Shown here one piece after another: positions 15,714 through 39,334 of a DNA stretch of 64,000 nt. Made by a program: the position numbers and the translations under genes. How positions within the stretch are numbered: the first letter of the stretch is position 1; each line of letters starts with the position of its first letter. The notes beneath the pieces are model-generated. The model saw only the letters and a list, made by a program, of their open reading frames with translations, made no database searches and was not told the DNA's origin. The DNA is from Candidatus Babelota bacterium. Lineage in GTDB: Bacteria; Babelota; Babeliae; Babelales; Vermiphilaceae. The stretch is from the NCBI GenBank assembly GCA_004375875.1, contig SOKE01000016.1, positions 4,423-68,422 of the forward strand, read 5' to 3'.

Positions 15714-15760
15714 AAACAAAAAAACAATCTAAACTAAGGTATCAAAAAAAAGGAGTATTA

Positions 15761-16949: not shown

Positions 16950-16959
16950 AAGGATCTAC

Positions 16960-18297: not shown

Positions 18298-18300
18298 AAA

Positions 18301-18930
18301 ATGATTCGATGGATACAAAAAAAAATATCACGGTTATTCAACGGTTTGTGGAAACTCTTTCGTAATGGATTTTTAACCATTCTCCCTATCGCATTAACCA
18401 TTGTTATCTTCAAAATAACGCTTAATCTTATTATTAGTTGGCTTGAACCGCTTAAACCATTTGTGCCTACTTATCTAGATATCCCTTATGGTGAAGTTGT
18501 TCTCGCTATACTTATTATTTTCTTATTCGGAACAATACTCAAAATATTTGTTATGCGCTCAATCATCAACACAATAGAAAATTTCTTGATCAAACTTCCC
18601 CTCGTGCGACCTATATATTCCGGCATTAAGCAACTGGTACAAGCATTTAGTGCACATGATAAAATTACATTCAAAAAGGTTGTACTTATTGAGTTTCCAC
18701 GCAAAGGCATATACAGTGTAGGCTTTCTTACAAGCGAATTGGCACCGGATTTAGCTCCTAATAAAGAAGAAAAATTCTATAATATCTTTGTTCCAACTAC
18801 ACCTAACCCAACCAGCGGTTATTTCATTATTCTGCCGGAACGTGATATTATTATTATCTCTATTACTCGCCAAGATGCAATGGCTATGATCATATCTGGC
18901 GGCATCATCCAACCAAAAAAACATTTTTAA
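18301..18930 (+). CDS. DUF502-family membrane protein
   Basis: Two TM helices plus the conserved LPLVRPIYSGIKQL...FPRKGIYSVGFLT...IFVPTTPNPTSGYFI...ISGG pattern typical of DUF502. Confidence 0.6.
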   Translation: MIRWIQKKISRLFNGLWKLFRNGFLTILPIALTIVIFKITLNLIISWLEPLKPFVPTYLDIPYGEVVLAILIIFLFGTILKIFVMRSIINTIENFLIKLPLVRPIYSGIKQLVQAFSAHDKITFKKVVLIEFPRKGIYSVGFLTSELAPDLAPNKEEKFYNIFVPTTPNPTSGYFIILPERDIIIISITRQDAMAMIISGGIIQPKKHF

Positions 18931-18959
18931 CTAAAAATTAGAAAAAAATAAAAATTTTC

Positions 18960-19406
18960 TTACCATTGGACTTGTTGATGAGGACATAAATTATTAACAT
19001 CAATATAAAAAGCAGGCAATTCCTCTTCAGCTAAAGAAAGATATGAAATTTCTTGTACATTATTACAAAATGTTTCCCCCTGGCCAACTTCTTGATTTGA
19101 TATTTTTTGCTGTTGCAGCGGAAAATTTTTTACAAATTTCCAGATTTCTTGAAACATCTCTCTTGGCAAAACTCTGGCAGGCGATTCAGAGCCTACCCGG
19201 AGATGCAATGCAAGTAGAAAAGTTAAAATTGACTTAGAATTCTGCTCACATCGCAGTTCCTCTCTCCGTAAAATTTCTCTATCCGCTAGTTGAGCATAAA
19301 ACTCTTTGTATTCTTCCGCCGCTTGCCGCCAAAAAGCTGGTCCACATGAATCCAATATAATGAAGTTGAAAAGCAGCGATAATACTAAAATAAACTTAGT
19401 TTTCAT
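18960..19406 (-). CDS. Small secreted protein, tandem paralog A
   Basis: Signal peptide MKTKFILVLSLLFNFIILDSC. The N-terminal ~55 codons are ~88% identical at nt level to 19452..19775. Confidence 0.45.
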   Translation of the reverse strand: MKTKFILVLSLLFNFIILDSCGPAFWRQAAEEYKEFYAQLADREILRREELRCEQNSKSILTFLLALHLRVGSESPARVLPREMFQEIWKFVKNFPLQQQKISNQEVGQGETFCNNVQEISYLSLAEEELPAFYIDVNNLCPHQQVQW

Positions 19407-19451
19407 ATTTTTCCATTAATCCTTTACATAAATCCTAACGCAACTCTATTG

Positions 19452-19775
19452 TTATTCACATTGAAAAAATTGAGAAGATCTTCTAATTACAAACAATCTC
19501 GGTACACAAATCATACACGGCAAGCAATTTAAATTTGAAGGTAGACCGCAGGCAATGTAAGTAGAAAGCAATAAAATTGACTGTTTAGGACTCTGATTAC
19601 GTTGCAACTCCTCTTTACGTCCTAGTTCCTCTCTCCGTAAAATTTCTCTATCCGCTAGTTGAGAATAAAACTCTTTGTTATCTTCTACCGCTTGCCGCCA
19701 AAAAAATGGTCCACACGAATTCAATATAATGAAGTTAAAAAGCAACGATAATACTAAAACCAACTTAATTTTCAT
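19452..19775 (-). CDS. Small secreted protein, tandem paralog B (C-terminal half diverged)
   Basis: MKIKLVLVLSLLFNFIILNSC...EFYSQLADREILRREEL is shared with paralog A. The remainder is unrelated and Cys-rich, so this may be a decaying copy. Confidence 0.35.
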   Translation of the reverse strand: MKIKLVLVLSLLFNFIILNSCGPFFWRQAVEDNKEFYSQLADREILRREELGRKEELQRNQSPKQSILLLSTYIACGLPSNLNCLPCMICVPRLFVIRRSSQFFQCE

Positions 19776-19941
19776 TTTTTTCCTCTATAGATAATGATTG
19801 AACATATGCTACACCAACCTGAACACGTAATAATTTACAATAGGTTAGCAAAAAAACATACTTATGTAAAATGTTTTTTATTAAGACAAATTAGCAAAAG
19901 TTTTCTTATGGAAAATAAAAAAACAAAGATTGTTACATTGT

Positions 19942-20967
19942 TCAACAATGCGCTTGAAATGAAGTTTCATCATAATCACTTACTGATTGAATATCCTGCG
20001 GTGAAAACTGACCAAGGAAAAATTTTATATAAAGCAACTCAATATAATAAGAACCAACGCCATTTTTGAGATTATAATCCATTATATACAAAAACTGGTG
20101 CATCTGCTTTAACTCTTCAGGATCAGCCTTCTTCCAATCCCATTTGAGAAATGCAAACGGCAATTTAAATCCTAACTGTTTTGCTTCTGCACTTTTACCG
20201 CTCTTTTTGAGATTCGTATAATGATAAGAACGCCACAAGATATCAGACCAGAAAGCAATCCAAAAAACCTCCGGATAACGAAGCCCTATCTTTGACCATA
20301 ATGAAAAGAACTCTTTTACACGTTTGGCCAAAAAATATTCACTCACCTTAAAAAGTGATTGCTCCGGATCAATCAAAATTGGTAGCCATTCATCACAAAA
20401 TTGTTTTGTATTATTTCCTAGCAGTTGACCGTATTGCAAAAGCAAACAGGCTTTATCAAGCGCAATAGTTGCTCCATAAGAAAAAAATGGCTTACTTATA
20501 TTCTTCAGCACCCCTGATTGTATTTTATTAAAGAATAGTGCAAGTTTTTCAAAACCTTCTTGATCAATTTTGATATCCATAGTCACACACAAACAATCTT
20601 TTTTAAGTTCAGCTTGTTCTCGCTCATTTATACAAAAACCAAGAATATGTGGACCTTTATAGCAATTAATATATTCAAACCAAAATTTCTTTTTCTTTAC
20701 AGGAAGCATTGAAATATTACCCAACCAATAAAAATCGGTAGTTCCCAAAAAACCGTAAATTTCAAGTTTACTCAAAATCTGTGCTTGTTCCTGTAATTCC
20801 AGATCAAGACGCTCCACATTTCCTTCAATCAAACGTTGCACTTTTTGTGATAAAAGCGAGAAAAAAAGAAGTGGATACACATTATCACGCAATAAAAAAC
20901 AGATAGTACAATACGAAGAAAGAAATGATGATTGTTCAAGCTTTTTAAGAAACAATAGTAACTTCAT
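19942..20967 (-). CDS. Hypothetical protein; possibly DNA polymerase III delta subunit (HolA)-like
   Basis: The ~340 aa length and all-helical C-terminal half loosely follow HolA organisation. No diagnostic motif is visible by eye. Confidence 0.25.
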   Translation of the reverse strand: MKLLLFLKKLEQSSFLSSYCTICFLLRDNVYPLLFFSLLSQKVQRLIEGNVERLDLELQEQAQILSKLEIYGFLGTTDFYWLGNISMLPVKKKKFWFEYINCYKGPHILGFCINEREQAELKKDCLCVTMDIKIDQEGFEKLALFFNKIQSGVLKNISKPFFSYGATIALDKACLLLQYGQLLGNNTKQFCDEWLPILIDPEQSLFKVSEYFLAKRVKEFFSLWSKIGLRYPEVFWIAFWSDILWRSYHYTNLKKSGKSAEAKQLGFKLPFAFLKWDWKKADPEELKQMHQFLYIMDYNLKNGVGSYYIELLYIKFFLGQFSPQDIQSVSDYDETSFQAHC

Positions 20968-21130
20968 ACAATATTAAGATACTCAAAAATAAAAATAGAA
21001 GCACAAACGTATTTATCCAATTTTAGCTAAATATTTTTACATCTTCGACACTAATTTCGTGAAGGTTTTTATAAAAGAAAAAGCAAATCATAATTCCAAT
21101 GATATCAAGGGAATAAACAACATATATTAT

Positions 21131-21913
21131 TTACTCTATCCCTCGCCGCTGCAAACTAAAAAGCTGGCCTTTTTCTTGATTATTGTCCTTTGCCAGTCGT
21201 TTAGAATAATGCAACAATTTCACTATTCCTTTGCACGCAAGTTGTCGTAATTGTTCAAAAATCTCCCATGAAAGAGCTGTTTTTTCGGCCGAACCTTGTA
21301 CTTCAATCAGTTTGCCAGAAGAGGTAAGAACAAAATTAAAATCTGCACCTGCTCTGTTGTCTTCAGAATAATCGAGATCTAAATAAACTTGATTATCAAT
21401 AACTCCAACTGAAATTGCAGCAAGTGCATCCTTTATGATTGATTCTGGAATAATATCTCTTTCAAGCCAATACTGCTCTGCTACTTCCAATGCTAAATAA
21501 GCGCCAGTTAAACAAGCAGTCCGAGTTCCTCCATCCGCTTGTAAAACATCACAATCAACCAAAATAGTTTTCTCACCTATATTATCAAGCTGCACTATGC
21601 TACGCAATGATCTTCCAATTAAACGCGATATTTCAACTGAACGGCCATTGCGTTTTAATAACGTAGCTTCGCGCTGCGTTCGTATTGTTGTTGCAGCTGG
21701 CAAAAGTGCATATTCGGCTGTTAACCAACCAGTTTTTGAGCCTTTCAAAAAGAAAGGCACTCCTTTTTGCATCATCACAGAACAGAGAACCTTGGTATTA
21801 CCCATCTCGAATAAAACATTCCCTGGAGCATAACCAAAAAGGTTATAACTAATCTTTACTTTGCGCAGTTGATTATATGTACGATTATTCTGACGCCACA
21901 TCATGCTGCTCAT
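21131..21913 (-). CDS. rph: Ribonuclease PH
   Basis: GNVLFEMGNTKVLCSV, RSVEISRLIGRSLR and DCDVLQADGGTRTACLTGAYLAL are typical of RNase PH. Confidence 0.9.
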   Translation of the reverse strand: MSSMMWRQNNRTYNQLRKVKISYNLFGYAPGNVLFEMGNTKVLCSVMMQKGVPFFLKGSKTGWLTAEYALLPAATTIRTQREATLLKRNGRSVEISRLIGRSLRSIVQLDNIGEKTILVDCDVLQADGGTRTACLTGAYLALEVAEQYWLERDIIPESIIKDALAAISVGVIDNQVYLDLDYSEDNRAGADFNFVLTSSGKLIEVQGSAEKTALSWEIFEQLRQLACKGIVKLLHYSKRLAKDNNQEKGQLFSLQRRGIE

Positions 21914-21948
21914 ATCTTTAAATAAAAACTATTATTTTATTTATTCTC

Positions 21949-24033
21949 TTATTCTCGATCCAGCAAACGTAAACGAATTTTTCCACTTACTGGATCGTAA
22001 TCTACAACTTCAACGAGAACAACATCTTCTAGTTTGAAATGCTTCATAAACGTTTTTTGCAGTTGTCGTGGAATATTTGAAATGTGGACAAGACCATCTT
22101 GACCTGGTACCAGCTCAACAAAAATGCCAAAATCAACAAAACGTCTGATCTTTCCGTGATATCTAGCCCCTTTTTCTATATCACCAACGAGCGTTTTTAT
22201 CCAGTTGACTGCCATCTCAATATTAGCGCCTGGTGCACCAAACACCTTTACTTGACCATCTGGTCCAATATCAATATCAGTGCTCGTTTTTTCAATAATA
22301 TCACGGATAGTCTTACCACGAGGACCAATAACAGTTCCAATCTTATCAGTACCAATTTTGAAATTAACCAATTTAGGCACTAATTCAGATAGTGTTGAAC
22401 GTGGTTCGCTCATAACAGAACGCATTTTTTCAAGAATATAAAGTCGTCCTTCACGTGCTTGCTCTAATGCTTTTTCAAAAATTGGTCGCGTCAAGCCACC
22501 TTTATATTTAATATCAAGCTGAATTGCTAACACACCTTTATCTGTACCAGCAACTTTAAAATCCATCAACCCAAATGAATCCTCAAAACCAGTAATATCC
22601 GACAGAGTTTTACATTCAGCATCTTTCGAGCACAACAAACCCATTGCAATACCGCTTACCATCTTTTTTATTGGTACACCAGCATCCATCAATGCCATGG
22701 TAGAACCACAAACTGTTGCCATCGATGAAGAGCCATTAGACTCCAAAATATCTGATACAACACGAATAGTGTAAGGGAATTTTTCTTTATCAGGCAAAAT
22801 ATAAGTAAAAGATCCCGCAGCTAAATGACCATGACCAATTTCACGACGACCGGGTCCTCTGAGTGGACGAGCTTCACCAACAGCAAATGGAGGAAAGTTG
22901 TAATGAAGCATAAAACTTCCAGAAATCTCATCCCCCATTATTCCTTCAATCTTTTGTTCATCTCGACCACCACCAAGTGTTACGCTTACCAATGCCTGTG
23001 TGCGTCCTCTCGTAAAGAGCGCTGAGCCATGTACAAATGGCAATATCCCAACTTGTATCCAGATAGGCCGAATCTCGTTGAAAGCGCGGCCATCAAGGCG
23101 TTTGTTTTTAGCAAGCACAATCTCTCGTAATTTACGCTTGAGCACTAATTCCCAAATATATAAGACAACCTTTTTCAGTTCCTCATTATATTTAAATTCT
23201 TCCGCATATTGATTAATAAAATCTTCTTTAACCACTTCAAAATTTTTGCTAAATGCAATCTTATCACTAATAAAAAAACTGCTAAGTAGGTTGTCATCTA
23301 AAAATTTATCCGCATTTCTTTCCCATTTATCAAAATCAAAACTGAGAACAACCTTCTCCTTAGGAATACCAACTTCCTGTTGAATCTCCTTCTGCCAGGC
23401 CACCAACTTCTTTATTTTTTCATGGGCTAGAAAGAGCGTATTAACTAACTCATTATCCGGCAACTCATCAAGTGAGCCTTCTACCATGCTCACGCCTTCA
23501 TCCGTACCAGCAATAAACAGCCTTCCATTAGAAGCAAAACTTTGAGCATAAATTGGATTAATAACCCAGCTACCTTCTAAATATGCAAGTTCAACAACAC
23601 CAACTGGACCCAAAAAAGGAATTTTTGAAATTGTTAATGCAAGCGAACTAGCAATCATTGCTAACGGTCCTGGAACATGTTCTTTATCAACTGAATAAAC
23701 AGTCGCAATTATCTGCACAGAATCAAAAAAACGCTCAGAAAATAGGGGTCGCAGCGCACGATCAATAAGACGACTCGTTAGAATTTCTTTATCGGTGGGC
23801 CTCCCCTCACGCTTAAAATAACCACCAGGAATTTTACCCGCAGCAGAAAAAAGTTCACGATATTCAACCGTTAATGGTAAAAAACCAGGGAATTCTCTAG
23901 CAGGTGCTGAAACAACCGTAGCCAGTACAATAGTGCCACCTTGTCTAATCCAAACAGACCCACTAGCCTGTTGCGCAAAAGTATTTAATTCAACTTCATA
24001 TCCAAAATCAGAAAATGTAAATTTCTTTGTCAT
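21949..24033 (-). CDS. pnp: Polyribonucleotide nucleotidyltransferase (PNPase)
   Basis: Two PH domains, a KH domain (GPRGKTIRDI) and a C-terminal S1 domain (YHGKIRRFVDFGIFVEL). It sits downstream of rpsO, as in most bacteria. Confidence 0.95.
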   Translation of the reverse strand: MTKKFTFSDFGYEVELNTFAQQASGSVWIRQGGTIVLATVVSAPAREFPGFLPLTVEYRELFSAAGKIPGGYFKREGRPTDKEILTSRLIDRALRPLFSERFFDSVQIIATVYSVDKEHVPGPLAMIASSLALTISKIPFLGPVGVVELAYLEGSWVINPIYAQSFASNGRLFIAGTDEGVSMVEGSLDELPDNELVNTLFLAHEKIKKLVAWQKEIQQEVGIPKEKVVLSFDFDKWERNADKFLDDNLLSSFFISDKIAFSKNFEVVKEDFINQYAEEFKYNEELKKVVLYIWELVLKRKLREIVLAKNKRLDGRAFNEIRPIWIQVGILPFVHGSALFTRGRTQALVSVTLGGGRDEQKIEGIMGDEISGSFMLHYNFPPFAVGEARPLRGPGRREIGHGHLAAGSFTYILPDKEKFPYTIRVVSDILESNGSSSMATVCGSTMALMDAGVPIKKMVSGIAMGLLCSKDAECKTLSDITGFEDSFGLMDFKVAGTDKGVLAIQLDIKYKGGLTRPIFEKALEQAREGRLYILEKMRSVMSEPRSTLSELVPKLVNFKIGTDKIGTVIGPRGKTIRDIIEKTSTDIDIGPDGQVKVFGAPGANIEMAVNWIKTLVGDIEKGARYHGKIRRFVDFGIFVELVPGQDGLVHISNIPRQLQKTFMKHFKLEDVVLVEVVDYDPVSGKIRLRLLDRE

Positions 24034-24108
24034 TAAAGTAGATTACCTCTTATTATTATATCTATTGAATTGAATTCCATTATAGAATTGCATTTTCACA
24101 GTTGATTC

Positions 24109-24378
24109 TTATCCTTTCAATCCAAAACGCTCTCTTACCAATTTATACCGTTCAGGATCATGTTTTGCAAGATATTTAAGGAAGTATCGACGTCGAGCTA
24201 CCTGAGTCAATAATCCTCGTTTTGACGCAAAATCATTGTGATTTTCTTTCAAATGATTCGTAAGCCGCCGAATATTCTCGGTCAGTAGTGCTACTTGGAC
24301 TCCCAAGGAACCACTATCATCAGGATGCAACCCAAATTCTTCAATGAGTTTCTTCTTCATTTCTTTATCTAATACCAT
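24109..24378 (-). CDS. rpsO: 30S ribosomal protein S15
   Basis: 89 aa; LTENIRRLTNHLKENHNDFASKRGLLTQVARRRYFLKYL. Confidence 0.95.
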   Translation of the reverse strand: MVLDKEMKKKLIEEFGLHPDDSGSLGVQVALLTENIRRLTNHLKENHNDFASKRGLLTQVARRRYFLKYLAKHDPERYKLVRERFGLKG

Positions 24379-24411
24379 ACTACTAAAAACCTCAAGTAAT
24401 AAAAAATCATA

Positions 24412-24441
24412 ATTCTACCTTATACCAACTTAAATTTGCAA
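24412..24441 (-). promoter_or_regulatory. Candidate sigma70-type promoter for rpsO-pnp
   Basis: On the minus strand: TTGCAA (24441-24436), an 18 nt spacer, then TAGAAT (24417-24412), about 34 nt upstream of the rpsO ATG. Confidence 0.35.
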
Positions 24442-24477
24442 AATATAAATTGATCCTACCCAAAAGGCCTAACTCAA

Positions 24478-24552
24478 TGGTAGGCGCGAGCGGGATTGAA
24501 CCGCTGACCCCTGCTACGTCAAAGCAGTGCTCTACCGCTGAGCTACGCGCCT
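24478..24552 (-). tRNA. tRNA-Val (anticodon GAC), CCA encoded
   Basis: The reverse complement is AGGCGCGTAGCTCAGCGGTAGAGCACTGCTTTGACGTAGCAGGGGTCAGCGGTTCAATCCCGCTCGCGCCTACCA. It forms a cloverleaf with a 7-bp acceptor stem, anticodon loop TTGACGT and a GGTTCAATCC T-arm. Confidence 0.9.
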
Positions 24553-27500
24553 ATTGATACACCCTCACTATCTTCAGCCGATTGTAGCTTCGGTTGCTGT
24601 TCCTCTTCTTCTTCTTTGCTGCCATCGCCAAGGTATTTCTCCCTGAACGATTTCAGGCCAGTCCCAGCAGGTATTAGTTTACCAACAATTACATTTTCTT
24701 TTAAGCCATAAAGATGATCTACCTGCCCCGAAATAGCTGCTTCTGCCAAAATTCTTGTCGTTTCTTGGAATGAAGCAGCCGAAATAAAGCTTTCAGTACC
24801 AAGTGAAGCCTGCGTAATTCCCATCAATACTGGTTTAGCAATTGCAACTCTTTTGCCTTCAGCTTGTAATAAAGAGTTGACCATCCCAAAATGTATACGA
24901 TCAATACGATCACCAATGAGGAAATCGGAATCACCAGGTTCAACAATACGAACTTTGCGTAACATTTGACGTACTATAATTTCAATGTGTTTATCATTAA
25001 TATCAACACCTTGTAACCTATAAATTTCCTGAATTTGGTCTACTAAGTAACGTTGCACTACACCAGGACCAAGAATACGCAATATATCATGCAGCACCGG
25101 AACACCGACAGTTAATAGATCACCTACACTAACTTTATCACCATTAACAACATTAAGCTGTTTACCGCGTGGTATATGATAATCATACGATTCTACTCCA
25201 GAGACCACAGAGATTTTACGCATACCACGATGTAATCCACCAAAAACTACTTCACCATCAATATCAGCCAAAACAGCTGGATCTTTTGGCACACGAGCCT
25301 CAAACAATTCTGAAATACGAGGTAAACCACCAGCAATATCTCTCGCTTTTGAAATTTCTCGTGGCATCTTAATAAGCACATCACCAGCTTGCACTTCCTG
25401 TCCATCAACAACGTTGAGATACCCTCCAGCAGGCAAGTAATAATGAGCCAACTCCTTACCGTCAGCATCTATAATACTAATGGCAGACTGATATTTCTCT
25501 GCTTTATGCTCAAGTACAATATACATTGATTTGCCAGTTGCTTCATCATAACGTTCATGTAACGTTATGTGATGAACCAGATCAACAAATTTAACAATAC
25601 CATTCTTTTCCGTCAATAATACTCTATTGTGTGGATCCCATTCTGCAAGCTTAGTATTAACACGAACTTCCTGCTTATCATTAACAAAAATAATTGAACC
25701 ATATTCAATAACATGACTCTGCAATTCACGGCCATCACGCGAAAAAATAAATAATTTAGCCTTCCTGCTCATAACTACATACTGGCCACGCTGATTAGTT
25801 ACCGTACGTATGTCACGCCAATGAACAACTCCATCCTTCTTGCTAATAAAGTATGGCTGCACTACCAAGCCACTTGCTATACCACCTATGTGGAATGTTC
25901 TCATCGTTAGCTGTGTACCAGGTTCACCGATTGATTGTGCAGCAATAATACCAACTGTTGTTCCTACATCAACAACTTCACCACGGGCTAAATCATAGCC
26001 ATAACAGCAAGCACAAATACCTCGCTTAGCTTGACACGTAAGTACTGATCGAACCTTAATTTCAGACACAGCAGAATTAACCAAAACCTGTAAATCATAT
26101 CTGCCAATTATATGACCTTGCTCAAATAACAACTTACCAGAAACTTGATCTTTAACCTCCGCTGCTAACACCCTACCAAATACCCGATTGCTTAATGGAG
26201 AAATAACATCACCAGATTCCTGCAAATCTTTTAGTTCAACATAGCCAAGAGTTCTACAATCTTTCATTGTAACAACAACGTCTTGTGCAACATCAACTAA
26301 ACGACGCGTTAGATAACCAGAATTAGCTGTTTTTAGTGCAGTATCTGATTGTCCTTTTCGTGCGCCATGTGTCGAAATAAAATATTCGAAAACACTTAAG
26401 CCCTCTTTAAAATTAGTAAGAACTGGTGTCTCCATAACCTCTCCTGTTGGCTTTGCCATAAGTCCACGCATACCAGCAAGCTGCTTAACTTGGTCCTTAG
26501 AACCACGTGCCCCAGAAGCAAGCATCATAAAGATAGGATTAAATGGGCTAAAGGTACGTTTTTTATTTTCAAATCCCTTCTCATCTTGCTCTTCAAGCCC
26601 TTTATACATAGCAGATGCAACACCCGAAGTTGCACTCCCCCAAATGCTAATTACTTTGTTATAACGCTCACCGTTTGTTATAACACCATCCATATAAAGT
26701 TTCTCAACTCGTTCGACCTCTTTATTTGCTTGTTCAATTATTTTTGATTTTTCTTTAGGTACTATTAGATCGTCTATTGCAAAAGAAATCCCAGAAATAG
26801 TCGCATAATAAAAACCAAGATTCTTAATTTTATCTAAGCAGACAACAGTCGCTTCTTGACCAAATTGGTAATAAATTTTTTCAATCAATCCAACTAAATC
26901 ACTCTGCATCATTACTTTATTAACCCAGCTAAAATTAGCTTCATCTGGCAAAGCATCATAGAGAAGAACACGCCCCGTTGTCGTCTCTACAATAGAACCA
27001 TCAGAAATACGAACCTTAATTTTTGCATGCAAATCAACTTGATTATACTGGAAAGCCGAAATAACTTCTTGAAATGACCCAAAGGTTATATTTTCACCTT
27101 TGGCATGCAACCGAACCTTTGTTATATAATACAACCCAAGAACCATATCCTGCGATGGCACAATAATCGGTCTTCCATTTGATGGAGAAAGTACACTAAG
27201 GCTTGAAAGAATCAGATTACATACTTCCATCTGCGCCTCTTTGCTCAGCGGAATGTGAACTGCCATTTGATCTCCGTCAAAATCCGCATTATAGGCAGCG
27301 CATACTAACGGATGAATACTAATCGCCTTACTATCAACCAAGACTGGATAGAACGCCTGAATACCCAACCGATGTAATGTTGGAGCACGATTGAGTAAAA
27401 TAGGTCGGTCTTTCACCACATCTTCCAAAACATCCCAAATAACCGGATCCAGATCTTCCACCATTTTTTTGGCTACACGCAAATTAGGTGCAACTTCACG

Positions 27501-28346
27501 TTCAATTAGACCAGAATAAATATAGGGTTTAAATAACTCCAAAGCCATAATCTTTGGCAAACCGCATTGATCTATATGCAATTTTGGATCAACGACAATA
27601 ACTGAACGACCAGAATAATCAACTCGACGTCCCAACAAATTTTGTCTGAATCTACCTTGCTTACCACGGAGTATCTCACTTAATGATTTAAGTGGTCGTT
27701 TATTGGAACCACGAACTGGCTGACCACGTCTGCCATTATCAATAAGAGCATCAACAGATTCCTGCAACATACGCTTTTCATTTTTTATGATAACCGATGG
27801 TGCATCAATTTCAATCAAGCGTTGCAATCTAATGTTACGATTAAGCACACGACGGTACAACTCGTTCAAATCTGAACTTGCAAAGCGTCCACCTTCCAAT
27901 GGCACTAGTGGACGCAAGTCTGGTGGTAATACCGGAAGTACCTCTAAGAACATCCATTCAGAACATAAGTTTGCCTGAATTAACCCAGAAACTATCTTAA
28001 TCCTACGAATAATTTTATGGCGCAGTGTAACCGATGTTATTTTACGATATTCTTCTTTTAAATTAACTAACTCAGCCTTTAGATCCATCTTGCCAAAGAA
28101 AGTTTTTAGTGCCTGTGCACCAGTGTCGGCAAAAAATTCAGTATCATTCGGGTTATTTTCAATATAGTTTTCCAATTCAAAAGTAGTAATCAGTGTTTTA
28201 CGTGGAAAAGGCGATTTTCCTTGAGTAATAACCATATACAGATCATAATAGATAACACGCTCAAGATCTTTAACTGGCATATCCATTATGAGCCCAAGGT
28301 AACTCGGAATACCCTTTAAATACCAAATATGACAAACAGGTGCTAC
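24543..28346 (-). CDS. rpoC: DNA-directed RNA polymerase subunit beta', portion downstream of the in-frame TAG (first ATG at 28286, conserved frame continues from 28346)
   Basis: Catalytic NADFDGDQM, bridge helix and trigger-loop regions are present. Codons 28346-28287 encode VAPVCHIWYLKGIPSYLGLI, which is conserved beta' sequence. The stop TAG at 24543-24545 lies inside tRNA-Val. Confidence 0.9.
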   Translation of the reverse strand, partial: VAPVCHIWYLKGIPSYLGLIMDMPVKDLERVIYYDLYMVITQGKSPFPRKTLITTFELENYIENNPNDTEFFADTGAQALKTFFGKMDLKAELVNLKEEYRKITSVTLRHKIIRRIKIVSGLIQANLCSEWMFLEVLPVLPPDLRPLVPLEGGRFASSDLNELYRRVLNRNIRLQRLIEIDAPSVIIKNEKRMLQESVDALIDNGRRGQPVRGSNKRPLKSLSEILRGKQGRFRQNLLGRRVDYSGRSVIVVDPKLHIDQCGLPKIMALELFKPYIYSGLIEREVAPNLRVAKKMVEDLDPVIWDVLEDVVKDRPILLNRAPTLHRLGIQAFYPVLVDSKAISIHPLVCAAYNADFDGDQMAVHIPLSKEAQMEVCNLILSSLSVLSPSNGRPIIVPSQDMVLGLYYITKVRLHAKGENITFGSFQEVISAFQYNQVDLHAKIKVRISDGSIVETTTGRVLLYDALPDEANFSWVNKVMMQSDLVGLIEKIYYQFGQEATVVCLDKIKNLGFYYATISGISFAIDDLIVPKEKSKIIEQANKEVERVEKLYMDGVITNGERYNKVISIWGSATSGVASAMYKGLEEQDEKGFENKKRTFSPFNPIFMMLASGARGSKDQVKQLAGMRGLMAKPTGEVMETPVLTNFKEGLSVFEYFISTHGARKGQSDTALKTANSGYLTRRLVDVAQDVVVTMKDCRTLGYVELKDLQESGDVISPLSNRVFGRVLAAEVKDQVSGKLLFEQGHIIGRYDLQVLVNSAVSEIKVRSVLTCQAKRGICACCYGYDLARGEVVDVGTTVGIIAAQSIGEPGTQLTMRTFHIGGIASGLVVQPYFISKKDGVVHWRDIRTVTNQRGQYVVMSRKAKLFIFSRDGRELQSHVIEYGSIIFVNDKQEVRVNTKLAEWDPHNRVLLTEKNGIVKFVDLVHHITLHERYDEATGKSMYIVLEHKAEKYQSAISIIDADGKELAHYYLPAGGYLNVVDGQEVQAGDVLIKMPREISKARDIAGGLPRISELFEARVPKDPAVLADIDGEVVFGGLHRGMRKISVVSGVESYDYHIPRGKQLNVVNGDKVSVGDLLTVGVPVLHDILRILGPGVVQRYLVDQIQEIYRLQGVDINDKHIEIIVRQMLRKVRIVEPGDSDFLIGDRIDRIHFGMVNSLLQAEGKRVAIAKPVLMGITQASLGTESFISAASFQETTRILAEAAISGQVDHLYGLKENVIVGKLIPAGTGLKSFREKYLGDGSKEEEEEQQPKLQSAEDSEGVSIGA

Positions 28347-32994
<4,648 letters not shown>

Positions 32995-33061
32995 AATAGC
33001 TCCTTATTAGCTACAAGGGGTAATCCATCCATTTTAAAAACGGCAAGTATAAACACAAAAC

Positions 33062-33448
33062 CTATGCAAACTTAACTTTAGCACCAGCAGCTTCAAGAAC
33101 CTCTTTCATCTTCTTTGCATCATCTTTCGGAGCTGATTCAGCTATAACACTTGGTGTATTCTCAACAAGTTTTTTTGCATCAGTTAAATTTAAATCAGTA
33201 ACAACTTGACGCAACGCTTTGATCATCTTGATCTTCTCAGGACCAGCCTCTTCCAAAGTGACTTTATATTCCGCTTTCTCTTCCTGCTGTGCAGGAGCTT
33301 CTGTTGCAGCTGGAGCCGCAGCAGCAGGTGCAACAGACATTGCAGCAGAAACACCAAACTTTTCTTCCAAAGCGTCTGCCAATTCAGATGCATCAAGTAC
33401 TGACATGTTCGCTATTTCTTCAATCAGTTTATCTAAATTCTTTGCCAT
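33062..33448 (-). CDS. rplL: 50S ribosomal protein L7/L12
   Basis: MAKNLDKLIEEIANMSVLDASELADALEEKFGV, an Ala-rich hinge, and the C-terminal domain ending ...KEVLEAAGAKVKFA. The start is revised to the ATG at 33448. Confidence 0.95.
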   Translation of the reverse strand: MAKNLDKLIEEIANMSVLDASELADALEEKFGVSAAMSVAPAAAAPAATEAPAQQEEKAEYKVTLEEAGPEKIKMIKALRQVVTDLNLTDAKKLVENTPSVIAESAPKDDAKKMKEVLEAAGAKVKFA

Positions 33449-33525
33449 AATATTCCCCATACTAAGTGGTGTAGTTAACAAAAAACCTTTTTAAAATCAA
33501 CTTCTCTACTATTCTTTCTCTCGTT

Positions 33526-34047
33526 TTATTTCTTTAATTCTCCTATCATCCTTAATATTCTTATAATTCGAATCATAGGAGCCCTCAATGTATAAATTAA
33601 ACGTGCTGATGGCATCCTTAACATACCGCATAATTGTGCAATCAAGATTTCTTTAGGTGGCAACGTTGCAATGCGTGAAACAGCCTCTTTTGTTAGCAAT
33701 TCTGAATCTAAATATCCTGCAATCACATGCAATTGTTTATTCTCTTGTGCAAAATCGTACAGAACCTTTGCTATTACTGGTGACTCTCCAGTTGTTGATA
33801 AAACAAATGCAAGTTGACCCTTCAAATACGGTATTAACGATTCAATTTTTTCTATTCCCTTAGCAGCACGCTTCATTAATCTAATTTTTGAAACCTTTAA
33901 TGCCCCACCTTTTTCATCCAGCCTTCTCCGTAATAGTTGCATCTGCTCAACAGACATACCACAAAAGTTCACTAAAAATAATGACTTACTTTCAGTAAAA
34001 TCATCTCGTAATTGATTAACAACCAGCCCTTTTTGATGACGATTCAT
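33526..34047 (-). CDS. rplJ: 50S ribosomal protein L10
   Basis: 173 aa, positioned between rplA and rplL. The N-terminal KxxxVxxLxxxFxxSxxxxLVxFxGMSVxQMxxLRxxL pattern is present. Confidence 0.9.
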   Translation of the reverse strand: MNRHQKGLVVNQLRDDFTESKSLFLVNFCGMSVEQMQLLRRRLDEKGGALKVSKIRLMKRAAKGIEKIESLIPYLKGQLAFVLSTTGESPVIAKVLYDFAQENKQLHVIAGYLDSELLTKEAVSRIATLPPKEILIAQLCGMLRMPSARLIYTLRAPMIRIIRILRMIGELKK

Positions 34048-34063
34048 CGTAACCTCATACCAA

Positions 34064-34759
34064 TCATGCTAATATTTCATCCGGATTTATCGAAATACCA
34101 ACGCCCATCGTAGAAGAAACAGTTGCTCTCTGAATAAATTTGCCCTTAGAAGCAGCAGGTTTTGCAGCTGCTAGAGCCTTCAAAAAGGCAACTAAATTTT
34201 GATACAATTTTTCACTATCAAATGAAACCTTACCAAATGAAAAATGAACAAATCCTTGTTTATCATTTTTGAAAAAGACACGCCCACGCTTTAAATCTTT
34301 TACTGTCTCGGCAATATCAAAAGTTACTGTACCAAGCTTTTTGTTCGGTAAAAGACCTCTTGGTCCTAAAATTTTTGCTAACTTACCCACAAGACCCATC
34401 AAATCAGGTGTTGCTATAGCATAGTCAAAATCCATCCAACCTCCTTGAATTTTTTCAACTAGATCTTCAGCACCAATATAATCAGCACCAGCCTTTTGAG
34501 CCTGATCAGCGTAATCTCCTTTGGCAAACACAAGTACACGAACCTCACCAACTTTTTTAAGAGGCAATACAACAGAACCACGAACTGTTTGCTCACCCTT
34601 CGATGGATCAATTCCTAGTTTAACATCTACGTCGACAGATTCATCAAACTTTGCGTAAGCCCACTTTTTCAGATTATCGAGCGCATCCTTAATTGGAACT
34701 ATTACTTCCGTTTGAACCTGCTCTTTTACAGTATTGTATTTCTTCCCATGCATAGACAT
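34064..34759 (-). CDS. rplA: 50S ribosomal protein L1
   Basis: DESVDVDVKLGIDPSKGEQTVRGSVVLP, LGPRGLLPNKKLGTVT. Confidence 0.95.
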   Translation of the reverse strand: MSMHGKKYNTVKEQVQTEVIVPIKDALDNLKKWAYAKFDESVDVDVKLGIDPSKGEQTVRGSVVLPLKKVGEVRVLVFAKGDYADQAQKAGADYIGAEDLVEKIQGGWMDFDYAIATPDLMGLVGKLAKILGPRGLLPNKKLGTVTFDIAETVKDLKRGRVFFKNDKQGFVHFSFGKVSFDSEKLYQNLVAFLKALAAAKPAASKGKFIQRATVSSTMGVGISINPDEILA

Positions 34760-34777
34760 CTTTAATTCACCTAGCTA

Positions 34778-35203
34778 TTAGTCAACTACATCAAGCCCCA
34801 TACTTCGAGCACTGCCAGCAACAATTCGTTTCGCTTGCTCAAGATTTACAGTATTGAAGTCTAGAAGCTTAATTTTAGCAATCTCTTCAATATCTTTCCA
34901 AGAAATTTTGCCACTTTTATCAATTCCTGGACGGGAAGAACCCTTCTCAAGATTAATCTTTTTACGAATAAGTTCAGAAACTGGCGTCGTTTTTACGATA
35001 AAATCAAACGATTTGTCAATGTAAACAGTTATAACAACTGGCACTGTTTCTCCCTTCCTAGCAGCCGTTTTGGCATTAAACTGTTTACAAAACGCCATAA
35101 TATTGACCCCATGCTGACCAAGGGCGGAACCAACAGGAGGCGCAGGAGTTGCTCCTCCACCAGGAATTTGCAATTTTATCTTTGTTTTCACTGTTTTTGC
35201 CAT
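34778..35203 (-). CDS. rplK: 50S ribosomal protein L11
   Basis: [35 protein letters not shown]. Confidence 0.95.
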
Positions 35204-35218
35204 AGCAAAAGAACCTTA

Positions 35219-35737
35219 TTATTGCTTAACCTGATGAAATTTAAGCTCAACAGGTGTCATTCTACCGAATATACTTACCATTACCGTTAATTTTTCACTT
35301 TCTTCGTTAACCCTATCCACAATTCCAATAAATCCATCAAATGGTCCATCTTTGATTGTTACCTCACTACCAACCGCAATTTCAGTCTTTTTAGGCGCTA
35401 CAACTACCTCACCCTTGATTTGAGCCAACACGCGTTCGATCTCTTTTTGACTGAGTGGAAACGGATCTTTTCCCCCTAAAAAGCGAATAACCCGTGGGCT
35501 TGCAAGTACAAGACGAATAGACTCAGGAATCGAATCCATCTCAATAAGCATATATCCAGGAAAGAGCTGTTCATCTTTTTCTTCTTGCGTACTAAAAAAT
35601 TGTTTCAAGCGTGCTGAAGGAATTAAAATATCACCAAACTTTTCTTCCAATCCCTCTTCTTGGATTCGCTTTCTTAAATCTGCTTTGATCAAATCCTCGT
35701 AGCCAGCAAAAACCTGGACAACATACCATCGCTTCAT
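35219..35737 (-). CDS. nusG: Transcription termination/antitermination factor NusG
   Basis: KRWYVVQVFAGYE forms the NGN domain. The C-terminal KOW is GPFDGFIGIVDRVNEESEKLTVMVSIFGRMTPVEL. Confidence 0.95.
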   Translation of the reverse strand: MKRWYVVQVFAGYEDLIKADLRKRIQEEGLEEKFGDILIPSARLKQFFSTQEEKDEQLFPGYMLIEMDSIPESIRLVLASPRVIRFLGGKDPFPLSQKEIERVLAQIKGEVVVAPKKTEIAVGSEVTIKDGPFDGFIGIVDRVNEESEKLTVMVSIFGRMTPVELKFHQVKQ

Positions 35738-35752
35738 TCGATTAAATCCTGT

Positions 35753-35995
35753 TTACAACCAATACACGCCGAATCGACTAAAGATATAATCAGCAATTCG
35801 TGATAATCCAAAATCAAGTACCCCTAGGTAGCCGGAAAAAAAGGCAATTACAACCAAAACAATGATAGTTGAACCAACAAATTCATCCCAGCTTGGCCAG
35901 ATAACCTTCGAAAGTTCAACACGCACTTCATTAAAAAATTTAACAGCATCTTTCATATAACGCCTATATCTTTTATTACCTTCTTCTTTACTCAA
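35753..35995 (-). CDS. secE: Preprotein translocase subunit SecE
   Basis: FFNEVRVELSKVIWPSWDEF followed by a single TM. The start is ambiguous: TTG at 35995 or ATG at 35956. Confidence 0.85.
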   Translation of the reverse strand: MSKEEGNKRYRRYMKDAVKFFNEVRVELSKVIWPSWDEFVGSTIIVLVVIAFFSGYLGVLDFGLSRIADYIFSRFGVYWL

Positions 35996-36018
35996 ATAAC
36001 ATCATACATACATAACAT

Positions 36019-36095
36019 TGGCAGGCCAGGAGGGATTCGAACCCCCAACCCGCAGATTTGGAGTCTGCCGCTCTACCAATTCGAGCTACTGGCCT
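36019..36095 (-). tRNA. tRNA-Trp (anticodon CCA), CCA encoded
   Basis: The reverse complement is AGGCCAGTAGCTCGAATTGGTAGAGCGGCAGACTCCAAATCTGCGGGTTGGGGGTTCGAATCCCTCCTGGCCTGCCA; anticodon loop CTCCAAA. Confidence 0.9.
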
Positions 36096-36103
36096 AAAGT
36101 GAC

Positions 36104-36262
36104 CTATTTTGTTTCCTTATGCTCGGTATGTTTGCGGCAACGAGAACAGAACTTTTTGAGTTGCAATGCACCAACTTTTCGGTTTTTTGAAACAACTTGA
36201 CTATAATTGCGCTCCTTGCACTCTTTACATGCCAAATGTGTCGTTACCCTATTTTTTGCCAT
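36104..36262 (-). CDS. rpmG: 50S ribosomal protein L33 (52 aa; below the ORF-track size cutoff)
   Basis: Hand translation gives MAKNRVTTHLACKECKERNYSQVVSKNRKVGALQLKKFCSRCRKHTEHKETK, then TAG. This is the C4 zinc type (CxxC...CxxC) and sits immediately upstream of tRNA-Trp and secE. Confidence 0.85.
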   Translation of the reverse strand: MAKNRVTTHLACKECKERNYSQVVSKNRKVGALQLKKFCSRCRKHTEHKETK

Positions 36263-36291
36263 ATTGTAATCATTCCGTTACGAAAGCGCTA

Positions 36292-36367
<76 letters not shown>

Positions 36368-36465
36368 GTTCGATCATTCTTTTCACCACTTAATTAATAA
36401 ATAATACAATGAAAAACTTAAAAAAACAACTTATTTTGTATTAGAAAGTGCTTTGTACCAACCTT

Positions 36466-36541
36466 TGGAGCTGGCGACTGGACTTGAACCAGTGACCTGC
36501 TGATTACAAATCAGCTGCTCTACCAACTGAGCTACGCCAGC
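36466..36541 (-). tRNA. tRNA-Thr (anticodon TGT), CCA encoded
   Basis: The reverse complement is GCTGGCGTAGCTCAGTTGGTAGAGCAGCTGATTTGTAATCAGCAGGTCACTGGTTCAAGTCCAGTCGCCAGCTCCA. Confidence 0.9.
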
Positions 36542-36568
36542 TAAATTCTTTTTTTGAAAATCTTTTTA

Positions 36569-36644
36569 TGGAGCGGGAAACGGGACTCGAACCCGCAACC
36601 TACAGCTTGGAAGGCTGCCGCTCTACCAATTGAGCTATTCCCGC
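36569..36644 (-). tRNA. tRNA-Gly (anticodon TCC), CCA encoded
   Basis: The reverse complement is GCGGGAATAGCTCAATTGGTAGAGCGGCAGCCTTCCAAGCTGTAGGTTGCGGGTTCGAGTCCCGTTTCCCGCTCCA. Confidence 0.9.
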
Positions 36645-36653
36645 GTCTGTTCA

Positions 36654-36738
36654 TGGTGGCGAGGGCAGGATTCGAACCTGCGAAGGCTGAGCCAACGGAT
36701 TTACAGTCCGTCCCCTTTGGCCGCTCGGGAACCTCGCC
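36654..36738 (-). tRNA. tRNA-Tyr (anticodon GTA), long variable arm, CCA encoded
   Basis: The reverse complement is GGCGAGGTTCCCGAGCGGCCAAAGGGGACGGACTGTAAATCCGTTGGCTCAGCCTTCGCAGGTTCGAATCCTGCCCTCGCCACCA. Confidence 0.9.
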
Positions 36739-36922
36739 ATGATGTCAAATATCATTTAAATAATAACATATTACAGCACGATTAGAATAGTGTTTTTCGA
36801 TCTTTATTGCAACTTTCTTTTTTATCCAAAAGGCCTATTTAGAGCTTATCAAAAAATTAATCTGACAGCACAAAAAAATGCTACCTTTTACCAATAAAAT
36901 AACAAACTACAAAAGGAATTCA

Positions 36923-37738
36923 TTAGAGAGCAGACTCCAATTGTTGTTTGCGGAAGATTTTTGCTTTTTTCTGTATAGCCCTATTTTCTACTGTATAACC
37001 ATGAAGTTTACACCAAACCTCAACAGAAATAGGAAAATGAATCTGTGCAAGCTCAAGCATCCCTTTTGCATAGCGCTGAATTTCCCATTGAGCATGATAG
37101 TCGTAACGCAATTTTATGAAGTGAAAAAGTGATACTAAATTACAAGTAAAAATGAATTGCGTATAGGTACAAAGCGGTAATAACCCACGCGCTAGTTCCT
37201 TAGCTATACCGGCTTGTAATAACTGTTGGTAGGTCTGACCACATAGATCAAGCACATTTCTATAAGCAGTAAAAAGTACATATTCATCATTAACATTTTT
37301 TTCAATAGAACCCTGACGATTTTTTTTATCAGAAACTCTCCACTTTTTTGGAATATAAAATTCTAGCGGAATTTGTGTATATCGGCCACTTACTTCATTA
37401 TAACTTACTCCAACACGATGACGCATCCATTGTCTGGCAATGAAAATAGGAAGTTTAACCTGAAAAACAAGGTGACTATGTTCAAAAGGACTTGTATGAC
37501 CATGTGATAATAAATAATGAATCAACTTTTCATCACGTGTACTAAACTGTTCACTCTCTTTACCATATGATACACGTGCTGCATTAACAATATCTAAATC
37601 TGAACCTGCAATACGTACCAAAGAAAGCAAACTAATCCCATCTCCAAGAGGATCTAGTTGTTCCATAAGAAAAAGCCTTTCATAATCTATTATTTTTTCT
37701 CTTAGGTAATTATTACATTCTGGGCAATGTAACACCAT
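36923..37738 (-). CDS. thyX: FAD-dependent thymidylate synthase ThyX
   Basis: The ThyX motif RHRxxSxxxxSxR is present as [17 protein letters not shown]. The ATG at 37738 overlaps dcd by 26 nt. An alternative ATG at 37666 (MEQLDPLG...) fits the usual ThyX N-terminus better. Confidence 0.85.
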
Positions 37739-38294
37739 GCTGTTTCATATATTTACCCTTTTTATCCGCATACGAAACTTCACAACTTTCATCCGCTTCA
37801 AAAAAGATAACTTGAGCAATTCCTTCATTTGCGTAAATTTTTGCTGGTAGCGGTGTTGTATTAGAAATCTCAATCGTAACATATCCCTCCCATTCAGGCT
37901 CAAAAGGAGTTACATTTACAATAATACCACACCGCGCATACGTAGATTTTCCAAGACATATTGTCAGTACATTGCGAGGAATACGAAAATATTCAATGCT
38001 CCGCGCAAGAGCAAATGAATTAGGCGGAATAATACAAATAGATTTCCTCATTTCAATAAATGAATCTTCAGCAAAACATTTGGGATCAACAATAGCATTA
38101 CGAACATTGGTAAATACTTTGAACTCATCGGCAACACGAATATCATAGCCATAACTAGACAAGCCATAACTAACAATCTTAGAGGAACAACCATTTGACT
38201 GTTCAATATGCGCAACCTGTTTTCCTTCAAATGGCTCAATCATATTATGCAGCCGTGCCATTTTACATATCCAACGATCAGGCTTAATACCCAT
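37713..38294 (-). CDS. dcd: dCTP deaminase
   Basis: [13 protein letters not shown] and [10 protein letters not shown]...[33 protein letters not shown] are typical of the Dcd/dUTPase fold. Confidence 0.85.
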
Positions 38295-38554
38295 TGCATT
38301 CCTTTTTATATGGTTTTCTAAAATTGGGTACTTATTACCTTACCTAAGTTGGCAAAAAAACAAAGAAAAATCTTAAACGTAGTAACATGAAACAAATACA
38401 AACAATATATCAAAAAAATTAACAACAACAGAAAATTATTAGATCATCACAGCAGGTAAATTATTGAAAAAGAATTTTGTTTTTAAAAAATGCAAAAAAT
38501 AGAAGATAAAAAGGTTATAAAAACAGAAGTAAATAGGAAGGCTCTCATTCAATG

Positions 38555-39334
38555 TCAATTGTGATCATGATGTGAACCAAACATATTACTCGATAATGGC
38601 ATTACAACTGTATCTTTCACCAATGCTTTACCAATATAGTCAACAACACCACAAGTAACATACATGCCAAATTTTCCTAAGGTTTGTATCCAAAGAGGCA
38701 ACTTATCAAAACCAGCTTCGTGTGTAGCTACTGCCAAAAGATCATCTATTGTTTTAGTTAGACCTACTCCACGTGATGTATCTTTGATGCTAGCCCATAT
38801 AACAGAAGCAGTGGCATCTTCTAACATTGCACGCACATTTTTTTTGTACCCTGGATCAGCACTATTAGGAAAACACTGTTGTTTGCATTTTTGAGCAATA
38901 GTATATGCAGCTAAGCGAGAACAGGAACTGCTCGCTGCCCGCACTACAGATAATGACGAATCAAGATCGATACTCTGTGTTTTACATACAGCATTACAAC
39001 CATGGTAAATCGCTTCAGTTAAAATCATTTCTGATGCTACTTGTGGCACCGCATTAATATCAAATCGAGTTTGCTGTTCCTCATCACCTTGCCTTTTCTT
39101 GACAGCGTTACTATCACTTGGCTTCACTAACGCTCTACAACCTTTGTAGATTCCTTGAGCAAAACCAAAAAACCGCCAAGACCAATCATCGTGAGATGAA
39201 GTTGGTACCATTTTCAAATGTTCTGGTGTCTTCCCTACACGTTGAAAAGAACAATCCATTGCAACAAGATTAAAACAATGGGCAAATAACAATGATATAA
39301 CAGACAGTTTTATAGAATTCCATTTTATCTGCAT
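38555..39334 (-). CDS. Hypothetical secreted protein
   Basis: Signal-like MQIKWNSIKLSVISLLFAHCFNLVA. A GGAGG RBS lies 5 nt upstream of the ATG at 39334, while the track ORF begins at a TTG at 39346. No recognisable domain. Confidence 0.45.
   Translation of the reverse strand: MQIKWNSIKLSVISLLFAHCFNLVAMDCSFQRVGKTPEHLKMVPTSSHDDWSWRFFGFAQGIYKGCRALVKPSDSNAVKKRQGDEEQQTRFDINAVPQVASEMILTEAIYHGCNAVCKTQSIDLDSSLSVVRAASSSCSRLAAYTIAQKCKQQCFPNSADPGYKKNVRAMLEDATASVIWASIKDTSRGVGLTKTIDDLLAVATHEAGFDKLPLWIQTLGKFGMYVTCGVVDYIGKALVKDTVVMPLSSNMFGSHHDHN

What the first reader, a model, noticed from the sequence alone, without database searches (positions are those of the whole stretch)
28286..28349. In-frame TAG interrupts the essential rpoC (beta') gene at a universally conserved Leu codon
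On the minus strand, the 110-codon ORF 28347..28679 encodes the canonical beta' N-terminus with its zinc ribbon and ends ...[13 protein letters not shown]. The TAG (28347-28349) is exactly 21 codons in frame above the first ATG (28286) of the 1247-codon ORF. The 20 intervening codons read VAPVCHIWYLKGIPSYLGLI. Together this reproduces the conserved beta' segment ERMGHIEL-AxPVxHIWFxKxxPSxxGxxLDM, with the stop sitting where the Leu of IEL belongs. TTG to TAG is a single transversion. There is no start codon immediately after the TAG, and initiation at 28286 would delete conserved residues. The possible explanations are a base-call or assembly error, a very recent or polymorphic nonsense mutation, or site-specific UAG read-through or suppression in an essential single-copy gene. 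TAG is not globally reassigned: rpmG stops with TAG at its normal C-terminus, and batC and rpoC itself also end in TAG.
Basis: partly seen in the sequence, partly recalled or inferred. Interest (0 to 1): 0.8.

Follow-up and report, generated by a model that had tools for sequence, protein, structure and literature searches.

The report
One-base stop codon private to one assembly
The stop codon inside the RNA polymerase gene rpoC is really in this sequence, but it is a one-letter difference private to this metagenome assembly (two otherwise near-identical assemblies read TTG, leucine), so it is a base error or a defective variant and not a special decoding mechanism.

Summary
On the minus strand, rpoC (beta') of a Dependentiae/Babeliales bacterium has one in-frame TAG at 28349-28347 (codon 111). 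Every homologue checked has Leu there.

The exotic reading is not supported. Two independent assemblies of the same organism carry TTG (Leu) at this codon and encode an intact 1377-aa beta'. They are NCBI GCA_030589665.1 and JGI metagenome 3300022538, 99.98-99.99 % identical to the window over 20-24 kb.

Against the JGI contig, the window differs at two bases in 24,134. Both lie in rpoC and both are T->A on the coding strand: 28348 (TTG->TAG) and 25809 (ATT->ATA, synonymous).

A k-mer (Logan) assembly of read set SRR7716471 matches the window exactly elsewhere. One of its contigs ends on the base just before 28348, which suggests that position is heterogeneous or thinly covered in reads.

TAG also ends seven other genes in the window, including rpoC itself. 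There is no other interrupted gene, no tRNA-CUA in the window, no RNA structure after the TAG, and no start codon or ribosome-binding site after it.

GenBank protein numbering skips rpoC on the 68,830-bp source contig, so the break is probably already flagged as a pseudogene.

Verdict: a miscalled base or a defective minority allele. Low interest.

The parts
28347..28349 (-). In-frame TAG, codon 111 of rpoC. The middle base, 28348, is A here and T (TTG, Leu) in two near-identical assemblies.
28350..28679 (-). rpoC N-terminal 110 codons (TTG 28679; a GTG at 28676 is the start used by gene callers). Includes the zinc-ribbon cysteines. Matches Pfam RNA_pol_Rpb1_1 positions 3-74.
28287..28346 (-). 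20 conserved codons (VAPVCHIWYLKGIPSYLGLI) between the TAG and the first downstream ATG. They contain no ATG, GTG or TTG and no Shine-Dalgarno-like sequence.
24543..28286 (-). Rest of rpoC (1247 codons from ATG 28286; Pfam Rpb1 domains 1 to 5), ending in a normal TAG stop at 24545-24543.
25809..25809 (-). The only other base private to this assembly in the 24 kb compared with the JGI contig. T->A on the coding strand, ATT->ATA, Ile957, synonymous. The Logan contig L084 carries T.
28669..32991 (-). rpoB (1440 aa) directly upstream. Its TAA stop overlaps the rpoC start. Its exact protein is GenBank TET06523.1, numbered next to S15 (TET06522.1), with no beta' accession between them.

Best explanation
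The organism, an uncultured Dependentiae/Babeliales bacterium, has an ordinary uninterrupted rpoC with TTG (Leu) at codon 111. The TAG in this window is one T->A difference at base 28348 that is private to this metagenome assembly, the 68,830-bp contig held in GenBank and IMG. It most likely arose at a position where the read data are heterogeneous or thin. Either the consensus base is wrong, or the assembler threaded a defective minority allele. I rate those two sub-cases about equally likely. In neither case is the UAG decoded. Functional beta' comes from TTG copies, and no read-through, suppression or split-subunit mechanism is involved.

Shown: the one-base difference, the intact alleles elsewhere, and normal use of TAG as a stop. 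Inferred: the heterogeneity in reads (from a contig end) and the pseudogene status in GenBank (from accession numbering).
For: 1. L083 (GCA_030589665.1, contig JAUUVG010000001.1) is 99.985 % identical to window 34378..14109. It has 3 mismatches in 20,270 bp and reads TTG at the codon, with an intact 1377-aa gene.
2. L085 (JGI 3300022538, Ga0247413_1699936) differs at 2 of 24,134 bases, 28348 and 25809, and also has TTG and an intact gene.
3. The protein cluster holds two intact 1377-aa members. Its one 1245-aa member is identical to the window ORF from its second Met and comes from a 68,830-bp contig.
4. GenBank accessions run pnp TET06521, S15 TET06522, rpoB TET06523, L7/L12 TET06524 on that contig. 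There is none for beta'.
5. Logan contigs of SRR7716471 total 25,079 bp and match the window with one mismatch. Contig L082 ends at 28349, the base before the variant. Logan contigs end only at graph branches or where 31-mers were seen fewer than twice (PMC12424806). With 10 contig ends in 64 kb, an end exactly there is expected about 3e-4 times by chance.
6. Real strain variation exists: 9 SNPs in 49.7 kb against the GCA assembly.
7. TAG terminates rpmG, rplL, rpoC and four other genes. Stops among 50 ORFs of at least 100 aa are TAA 32, TGA 11, TAG 7. No other gene is interrupted.
8. The RNA after the stop folds no better than shuffles (z = -0.68).
Against: No reads could be inspected, so the allele fractions at 28348 are unknown.

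Two private differences of the same type (T->A), both inside rpoC, look more like a real linked haplotype than like two random errors. If that haplotype dominated the source sample, its carriers would need some way to make beta'.

A long contig (68.8 kb) usually implies coverage at which consensus errors are rare.

The Logan contig end could be a dead end from low coverage rather than a two-allele branch. I could not recover the adjoining Logan contig.
Confidence: 0.88

Rival explanations
1. The A...A haplotype (28348, 25809) is real DNA but comes from a second, non-functional copy of part of rpoC. Examples would be a duplicated fragment or symbiont DNA transferred into the host genome. It evolves without constraint and was collapsed into the contig by the assembler.
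For: Both private differences lie within 2.5 kb of each other inside rpoC, while the other 20 kb compared is identical. One is a nonsense change, as expected without selection. A Logan contig of SRR7716471 ends exactly before 28348, which points to heterogeneity at that base, though it could also be a low-coverage dead end. The same read set carries the T allele at 25809, unlike the window.
Against: No junction, extra copy or coverage signal was seen or could be tested. Two sites are too few to establish clustering (about 3 % by chance). An ordinary co-occurring strain explains the same data.
Confidence: 0.06
2. The TAG allele is the genuine, dominant genotype of a viable strain. Full-length beta' is made by amber suppression, for example by a Leu-inserting tRNA with anticodon CUA derived from tRNA-Leu(CAA), like E. 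coli supP, or by unusually leaky termination.
For: The contig was assembled with A at 28348, and a linked synonymous change suggests a real lineage. TTG->TAG is exactly the change that a Leu amber suppressor would repair without altering the protein (established genetics of supP/leuX; my own knowledge, not tested here).
Against: The allele is absent from two assemblies that differ by no more than 0.02 %. No tRNA-CUA is among the 8 tRNAs in the window. TAG is kept as the terminator of 7 other genes, with 5-16 codon extensions if read through. There is no stimulatory RNA structure. The GAA-UAG-G context has no known leakiness (my own knowledge).
Confidence: 0.05
3. rpoC is genuinely split here into a 110-aa zinc-ribbon fragment and a 1247-aa fragment that are translated separately and assemble, as natural split beta' subunits do.
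For: Both ORFs are otherwise intact and in one operon. Split beta' exists elsewhere in nature, as cyanobacterial rpoC1/rpoC2 and archaeal A'/A'' (my own knowledge).
Against: There is no ATG, GTG or TTG for 20 codons after the stop and no Shine-Dalgarno sequence before ATG 28286. Starting at 28286 would delete 21 residues, most of them invariant or nearly so in the Babeliales alignment. The break falls inside Pfam domain 1. Near-identical assemblies are unsplit, as are all 120 relatives.
Confidence: 0.01

Closest known systems
Internal-stop pseudogene calls in MAGs caused by base errors or minority alleles (NCBI PGAP 'internal stop' annotations)
   Same: A single nonsense codon in an otherwise perfect, essential, single-copy gene. 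Conspecific assemblies are intact. GenBank numbering shows no beta' protein on this contig. Other Dependentiae beta' proteins from long contigs in the database end in short non-homologous tails, consistent with frameshifts.
   Different: This is a substitution, not the more usual homopolymer frameshift. It is accompanied by a second private substitution in the same gene, which leaves room for a real variant haplotype.
Laboratory amber (UAG) mutants of E. coli rpoB/rpoC kept alive by suppressor tRNAs such as supP (tRNA-Leu, anticodon CUA)
   Same: A UAG inside an RNA polymerase subunit gene at a Leu (TTG) codon, one transversion from the wild type.
   Different: Those strains carry a known suppressor. 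Here no suppressor was found in the window and the rest of the genome was not available. This comparison rests on my own knowledge of E. coli genetics.
Programmed stop-codon recoding (pyrrolysine UAG, selenocysteine UGA, viral read-through) and stop-codon reassignment (codes 4 and 25, TAG-recoded phages)
   Same: An in-frame stop inside a conserved coding sequence.
   Different: The stop is not conserved even within the species. No RNA element is present. It is the only such codon in 64 kb, and TAG is used as a normal terminator.
Naturally split beta' (cyanobacterial and plastid rpoC1/rpoC2, archaeal A'/A'')
   Same: Beta' encoded as two consecutive ORFs.
   Different: Those splits lie elsewhere in the protein, are conserved across lineages, and each part has its own start signals. 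None of this holds here.

Membership tests
Programmed UAG read-through / recoding site | The stop codon is conserved at the site among relatives | tested here: not met
   Two assemblies at least 99.98 % identical have TTG. All 120 Dependentiae beta' proteins and all 73 genome and metagenome loci checked have Leu.
Programmed UAG read-through / recoding site | A stimulatory 3' context or RNA structure | tested here: not met
   The 111-nt fold gives -24.3 kcal/mol against a shuffle mean of -22.3, z = -0.68. The flanks are identical to those of the TTG alleles.
Programmed UAG read-through / recoding site | A dedicated decoding tRNA (anticodon CUA) | tested here: inconclusive
   None among the 8 tRNAs in the 64-kb window. 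The rest of the genome could not be fetched.
Genome-wide TAG reassignment | Many in-frame TAGs at conserved positions of ordinary genes | tested here: not met
   Only one coding-strand case in the window.
Genome-wide TAG reassignment | TAG not used as a terminator | tested here: not met
   TAG ends rpmG, rplL, rpoC and 4 other genes. Stops are TAA 32, TGA 11, TAG 7 among 50 ORFs of at least 100 aa.
Naturally split beta' subunit | The second part has its own start codon and ribosome-binding site at the break | tested here: not met
   No ATG, GTG or TTG for 20 codons and no Shine-Dalgarno sequence before ATG 28286.
Naturally split beta' subunit | The split is shared by related genomes | tested here: not met
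   Intact 1364-1387-aa genes across Dependentiae, including the same species.
Assembly-private nonsense variant (error or defective allele) | One-base difference from otherwise identical intact sequence | tested here: met
   T->A at 28348. It is one of 2 differences in 24,134 bp against L085 and one of 3 in 20,270 bp against L083.
Assembly-private nonsense variant (error or defective allele) | Reads at the site are mixed, thin or of low quality | tested here: inconclusive
   The evidence is indirect only. Logan contig L082 of SRR7716471 ends exactly at 28349.

The most novel reading that the evidence does not exclude
The TAG allele is real and dominant in the sampled population of this intracellular bacterium, and beta' is still made. 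This could happen through a Leu-inserting amber suppressor tRNA, or because defective and intact genome copies complement each other inside polyploid cells. It would be a natural, tolerated nonsense allele in an essential gene.
Probability: 0.05. Interest if true: 0.6.

Novelty: not a real feature. Interest (0 to 1): 0.08.

Why it matters
As found, it matters only for quality control. One base (28348) in a public Dependentiae MAG contig makes an essential gene look broken, and gene callers then emit a truncated beta' (the 1245-aa IMG protein). Anyone using this contig should read codon 111 as TTG (Leu).

It would matter more only if reads showed the nonsense allele fixed in a living population. 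That would point to natural amber suppression, or to complementation between genome copies in an intracellular bacterium.

Tried and rejected
- **Genome-collection scan.** The patterns came from universally conserved peptides.
- **Exact look-ups of the window's own products.** The 1247-aa product and the 110-aa TTG-start product were not on record. The 1245-aa IMG product is in the cluster table but not in the position index.
- **Exact-pattern DNA scans across the site.** An exact 36-mer (one N at the variant base) scanned in metagenome contigs and an exact 26-mer (one N) in viral contigs both found nothing. A protein-based metagenome scan found only relatives of 72 % identity or less.
- **Recovering the Logan contig that continues past 28348.** Ten guessed partial products were not in the collection. 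No 100 %-identical partial protein appeared in three homology searches.
- **Sister species L090 (90.8 % DNA identity).** Its contig ends 45 nt before the site, so it says nothing about the ancestral codon.
- **Systematic motif error.** Both private sites share the context AT[T]NGTA. However, 20 other ATT[CG]GTA sites in the compared 24 kb are unchanged, so a motif-wide error, for example linked to methylation, is rejected.
- **Frameshift bypass.** By inspection, the +1 frame hits TAG after one codon and the -1 frame does not encode the conserved peptide.
- **Literature.** Searches for the accessions and for Dependentiae code changes returned nothing.

Full report
**What is in the sequence.**
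Read on the minus strand, the frame that opens at TTG 28679 (GTG 28676) encodes the N-terminus of RNA polymerase beta', including the CxC...CxxC zinc ribbon. It ends ...[10 protein letters not shown], followed by TAG at 28349-28347. The same frame continues VAPVCHIWYLKGIPSYLGLI, then ATG at 28286, and runs 1247 more codons to a TAG stop at 24545-24543. Pfam confirms that a single domain is cut. RNA_pol_Rpb1_1 positions 3-74 lie in the 110-aa ORF and positions 89-312 in the long ORF, followed by Rpb1 domains 2 to 5.

**The interrupted position.**
The closest database proteins are beta' of Candidatus Dependentiae/Babeliales, at 70-81 % identity. In about 100 of the first 120 homologues the motif RRERM(G/A)H(I/V)xL was found, always with Leu. 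In a second set, 120 of 120 Dependentiae proteins have Leu. At the DNA level, 56 genome loci from many phyla and 17 Dependentiae metagenome loci all have Leu, spelled with six different codons. The stop therefore replaces an invariant residue.

**The same organism assembled elsewhere.**
Exact-protein look-ups of neighbouring genes found the same strain in three other data sets.
- L083, from NCBI GCA_030589665.1 (contig JAUUVG010000001.1, 66.7 kb), matches window 34378..14109 with 3 mismatches in 20,270 bp. It reads GAA TTG GTA at the site and has an intact 1377-aa rpoC.
- L085, from JGI metagenome 3300022538 (Ga0247413_1699936, 59.5 kb), matches 38676..14543 with 2 mismatches in 24,134 bp. It also has TTG and an intact gene.
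- The two differences from L085 are both in rpoC and both T->A on the coding strand. They are 28348 (TTG->TAG) and 25809 (ATT->ATA, Ile957, synonymous).
- Across 49.7 kb the GCA assembly differs from the window at 9 sites, so a low level of real strain variation exists.

**Where the window comes from.**
The 90 % protein cluster of this beta' has three members. Two are the intact 1377-aa proteins. The third is a 1245-aa JGI/IMG protein from a 68,830-bp contig, and it is identical to the window's ORF from its second Met. The window's neighbouring proteins carry consecutive GenBank accessions on that same contig: pnp TET06521.1, S15 TET06522.1, rpoB TET06523.1, L7/L12 TET06524.1, L10 TET06525.1, L1 TET06526.1. 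rpoC lies between S15 and rpoB but has no accession. I infer that the GenBank annotation already treats it as a pseudogene. The TAG is therefore a property of one public assembly, not of the species.

**Indirect view of reads.**
Logan contigs are a k = 31 de Bruijn assembly. K-mers seen only once are dropped, and contigs end at branches or dead ends (PMC12424806). The Logan contigs of run SRR7716471 cover 25,079 bp of the window with a single mismatch.
- Contig L082 is 100 % identical to 31231..28349 and stops on the T of TAG, so the first k-mer that would include base 28348 is where the graph breaks.
- With ten contig ends in 64 kb, an end exactly there is expected about 3e-4 times by chance.
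- Contig L084 starts 17 nt before the second private site and carries T there, unlike the window.
- The simplest reading is that this read set is heterogeneous, or split and thin, at these two bases. I could not recover the adjoining contig to see which alleles it holds.

**Tests of the exotic readings.**
- TAG is not reassigned. It ends rpmG, rplL, rpoC and four other genes (TAA 32, TGA 11, TAG 7 among 50 ORFs of at least 100 aa). Reading through those stops would add 5-16 codons.
- No other gene in 64 kb is interrupted by a stop.
- None of the 8 tRNAs in the window has anticodon CUA.
- The RNA downstream of the stop folds no better than shuffled sequence (z = -0.68), and its sequence is identical in the TTG alleles.
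- A split gene would need a start signal. There is no ATG, GTG or TTG in the 20 codons after the stop and no Shine-Dalgarno sequence before ATG 28286. Starting at 28286 would delete 21 residues, most of them invariant or nearly so in the Babeliales alignment.
- Frameshifting past the stop gives an immediate TAG in the +1 frame, and a -1 frame that does not encode the conserved peptide (by inspection).
- An allele that differs from intact copies by 2 bases in 24 kb is too young to be an evolved recoding site.

**Error or real defective allele?**
I cannot separate these without reads.
- For a real allele: there are two private changes of the same type in one gene, which looks like a haplotype. 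The graph break lies at the exact base. Strain variation demonstrably exists.
- For an error: a nonsense codon at codon 111 of an essential single-copy gene should not persist in a viable dominant genotype. The fragmented Logan assembly suggests modest coverage.
- A motif-wide systematic error is unlikely. The two sites share the context AT[T]NGTA, but 20 other ATT[CG]GTA sites in the compared region are unchanged.
- A variant of the real-allele idea is a second, decaying copy of part of rpoC collapsed into the contig. It would explain the clustering and the nonsense change, but it has no direct support.

**Verdict.**
The read-through and suppression reading is not supported. I put about 0.88 on 'private base difference, no special decoding'. 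The rest is 0.06 on a collapsed non-functional copy, 0.05 on a real suppressed or complemented amber allele, and 0.01 on a true split. This is not a new biological feature, and interest is low. The practical outcome is a correction: codon 111 of this rpoC should read TTG.

Noticed in passing
window 28356-28358 (minus strand, codon 108): The almost invariant His of the beta' motif RERMGHIEL is Ser (AGT) here. Across the Dependentiae beta' set it is His in 117 proteins, Asn in 1, and Ser only in the two intact proteins of this species. The Ser codon is present in all assemblies of this species and in the Logan contig, so it is a real lineage-specific substitution three codons from the stop.
   Followed up: partly
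window 24478-24552: tRNA-Val(GAC) on the minus strand overlaps the last 10 nt of rpoC, including its TAG stop at 24543-24545.
   Followed up: no
window 19255-19414 and 19624-19783: Two 160-bp segments are 90.6 % identical and lie in two adjacent small ORFs (18960..19406 and 19452..19775, no Pfam match). They look like tandem paralogues. A Logan contig ends inside this repeat.
   Followed up: no
window 28669-28679: The rpoC start (GTG 28676 or TTG 28679) overlaps the end of rpoB, whose TAA is at 28669-28671. This suggests translational coupling of the two subunits.
   Followed up: no
window 20757, 48395, 52122, 52855, 52858, 62400, 62726: Seven further single-base differences from GCA_030589665.1. 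They include a pair 3 nt apart (52855 and 52858) in the gene occupying the batC position. The window agrees with the JGI contig at 20757, and with the Logan contigs at 20757 and 62400, the sites those contigs cover; 62726 lies 16 nt beyond the end of Logan contig L089, and the other four sites were not covered. These are strain-level variants.
   Followed up: partly
proteins P0017, P0018, P0029, P0031 (other Dependentiae, contigs from 10 kb to 165 kb): These beta' proteins stop after 500-570 aa with short non-homologous tails, the pattern expected from frameshifts. P0017 and P0018 lie on 140-165 kb contigs, so they are not contig-end truncations. Interrupted rpoC genes may therefore be fairly common in public assemblies of this phylum.
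   Followed up: no
window 49.7-55.4 kb (minus strand): A Bat-like operon: two VWA proteins, an unannotated protein, BatD, and a TPR/SH3 protein.
   Followed up: partly
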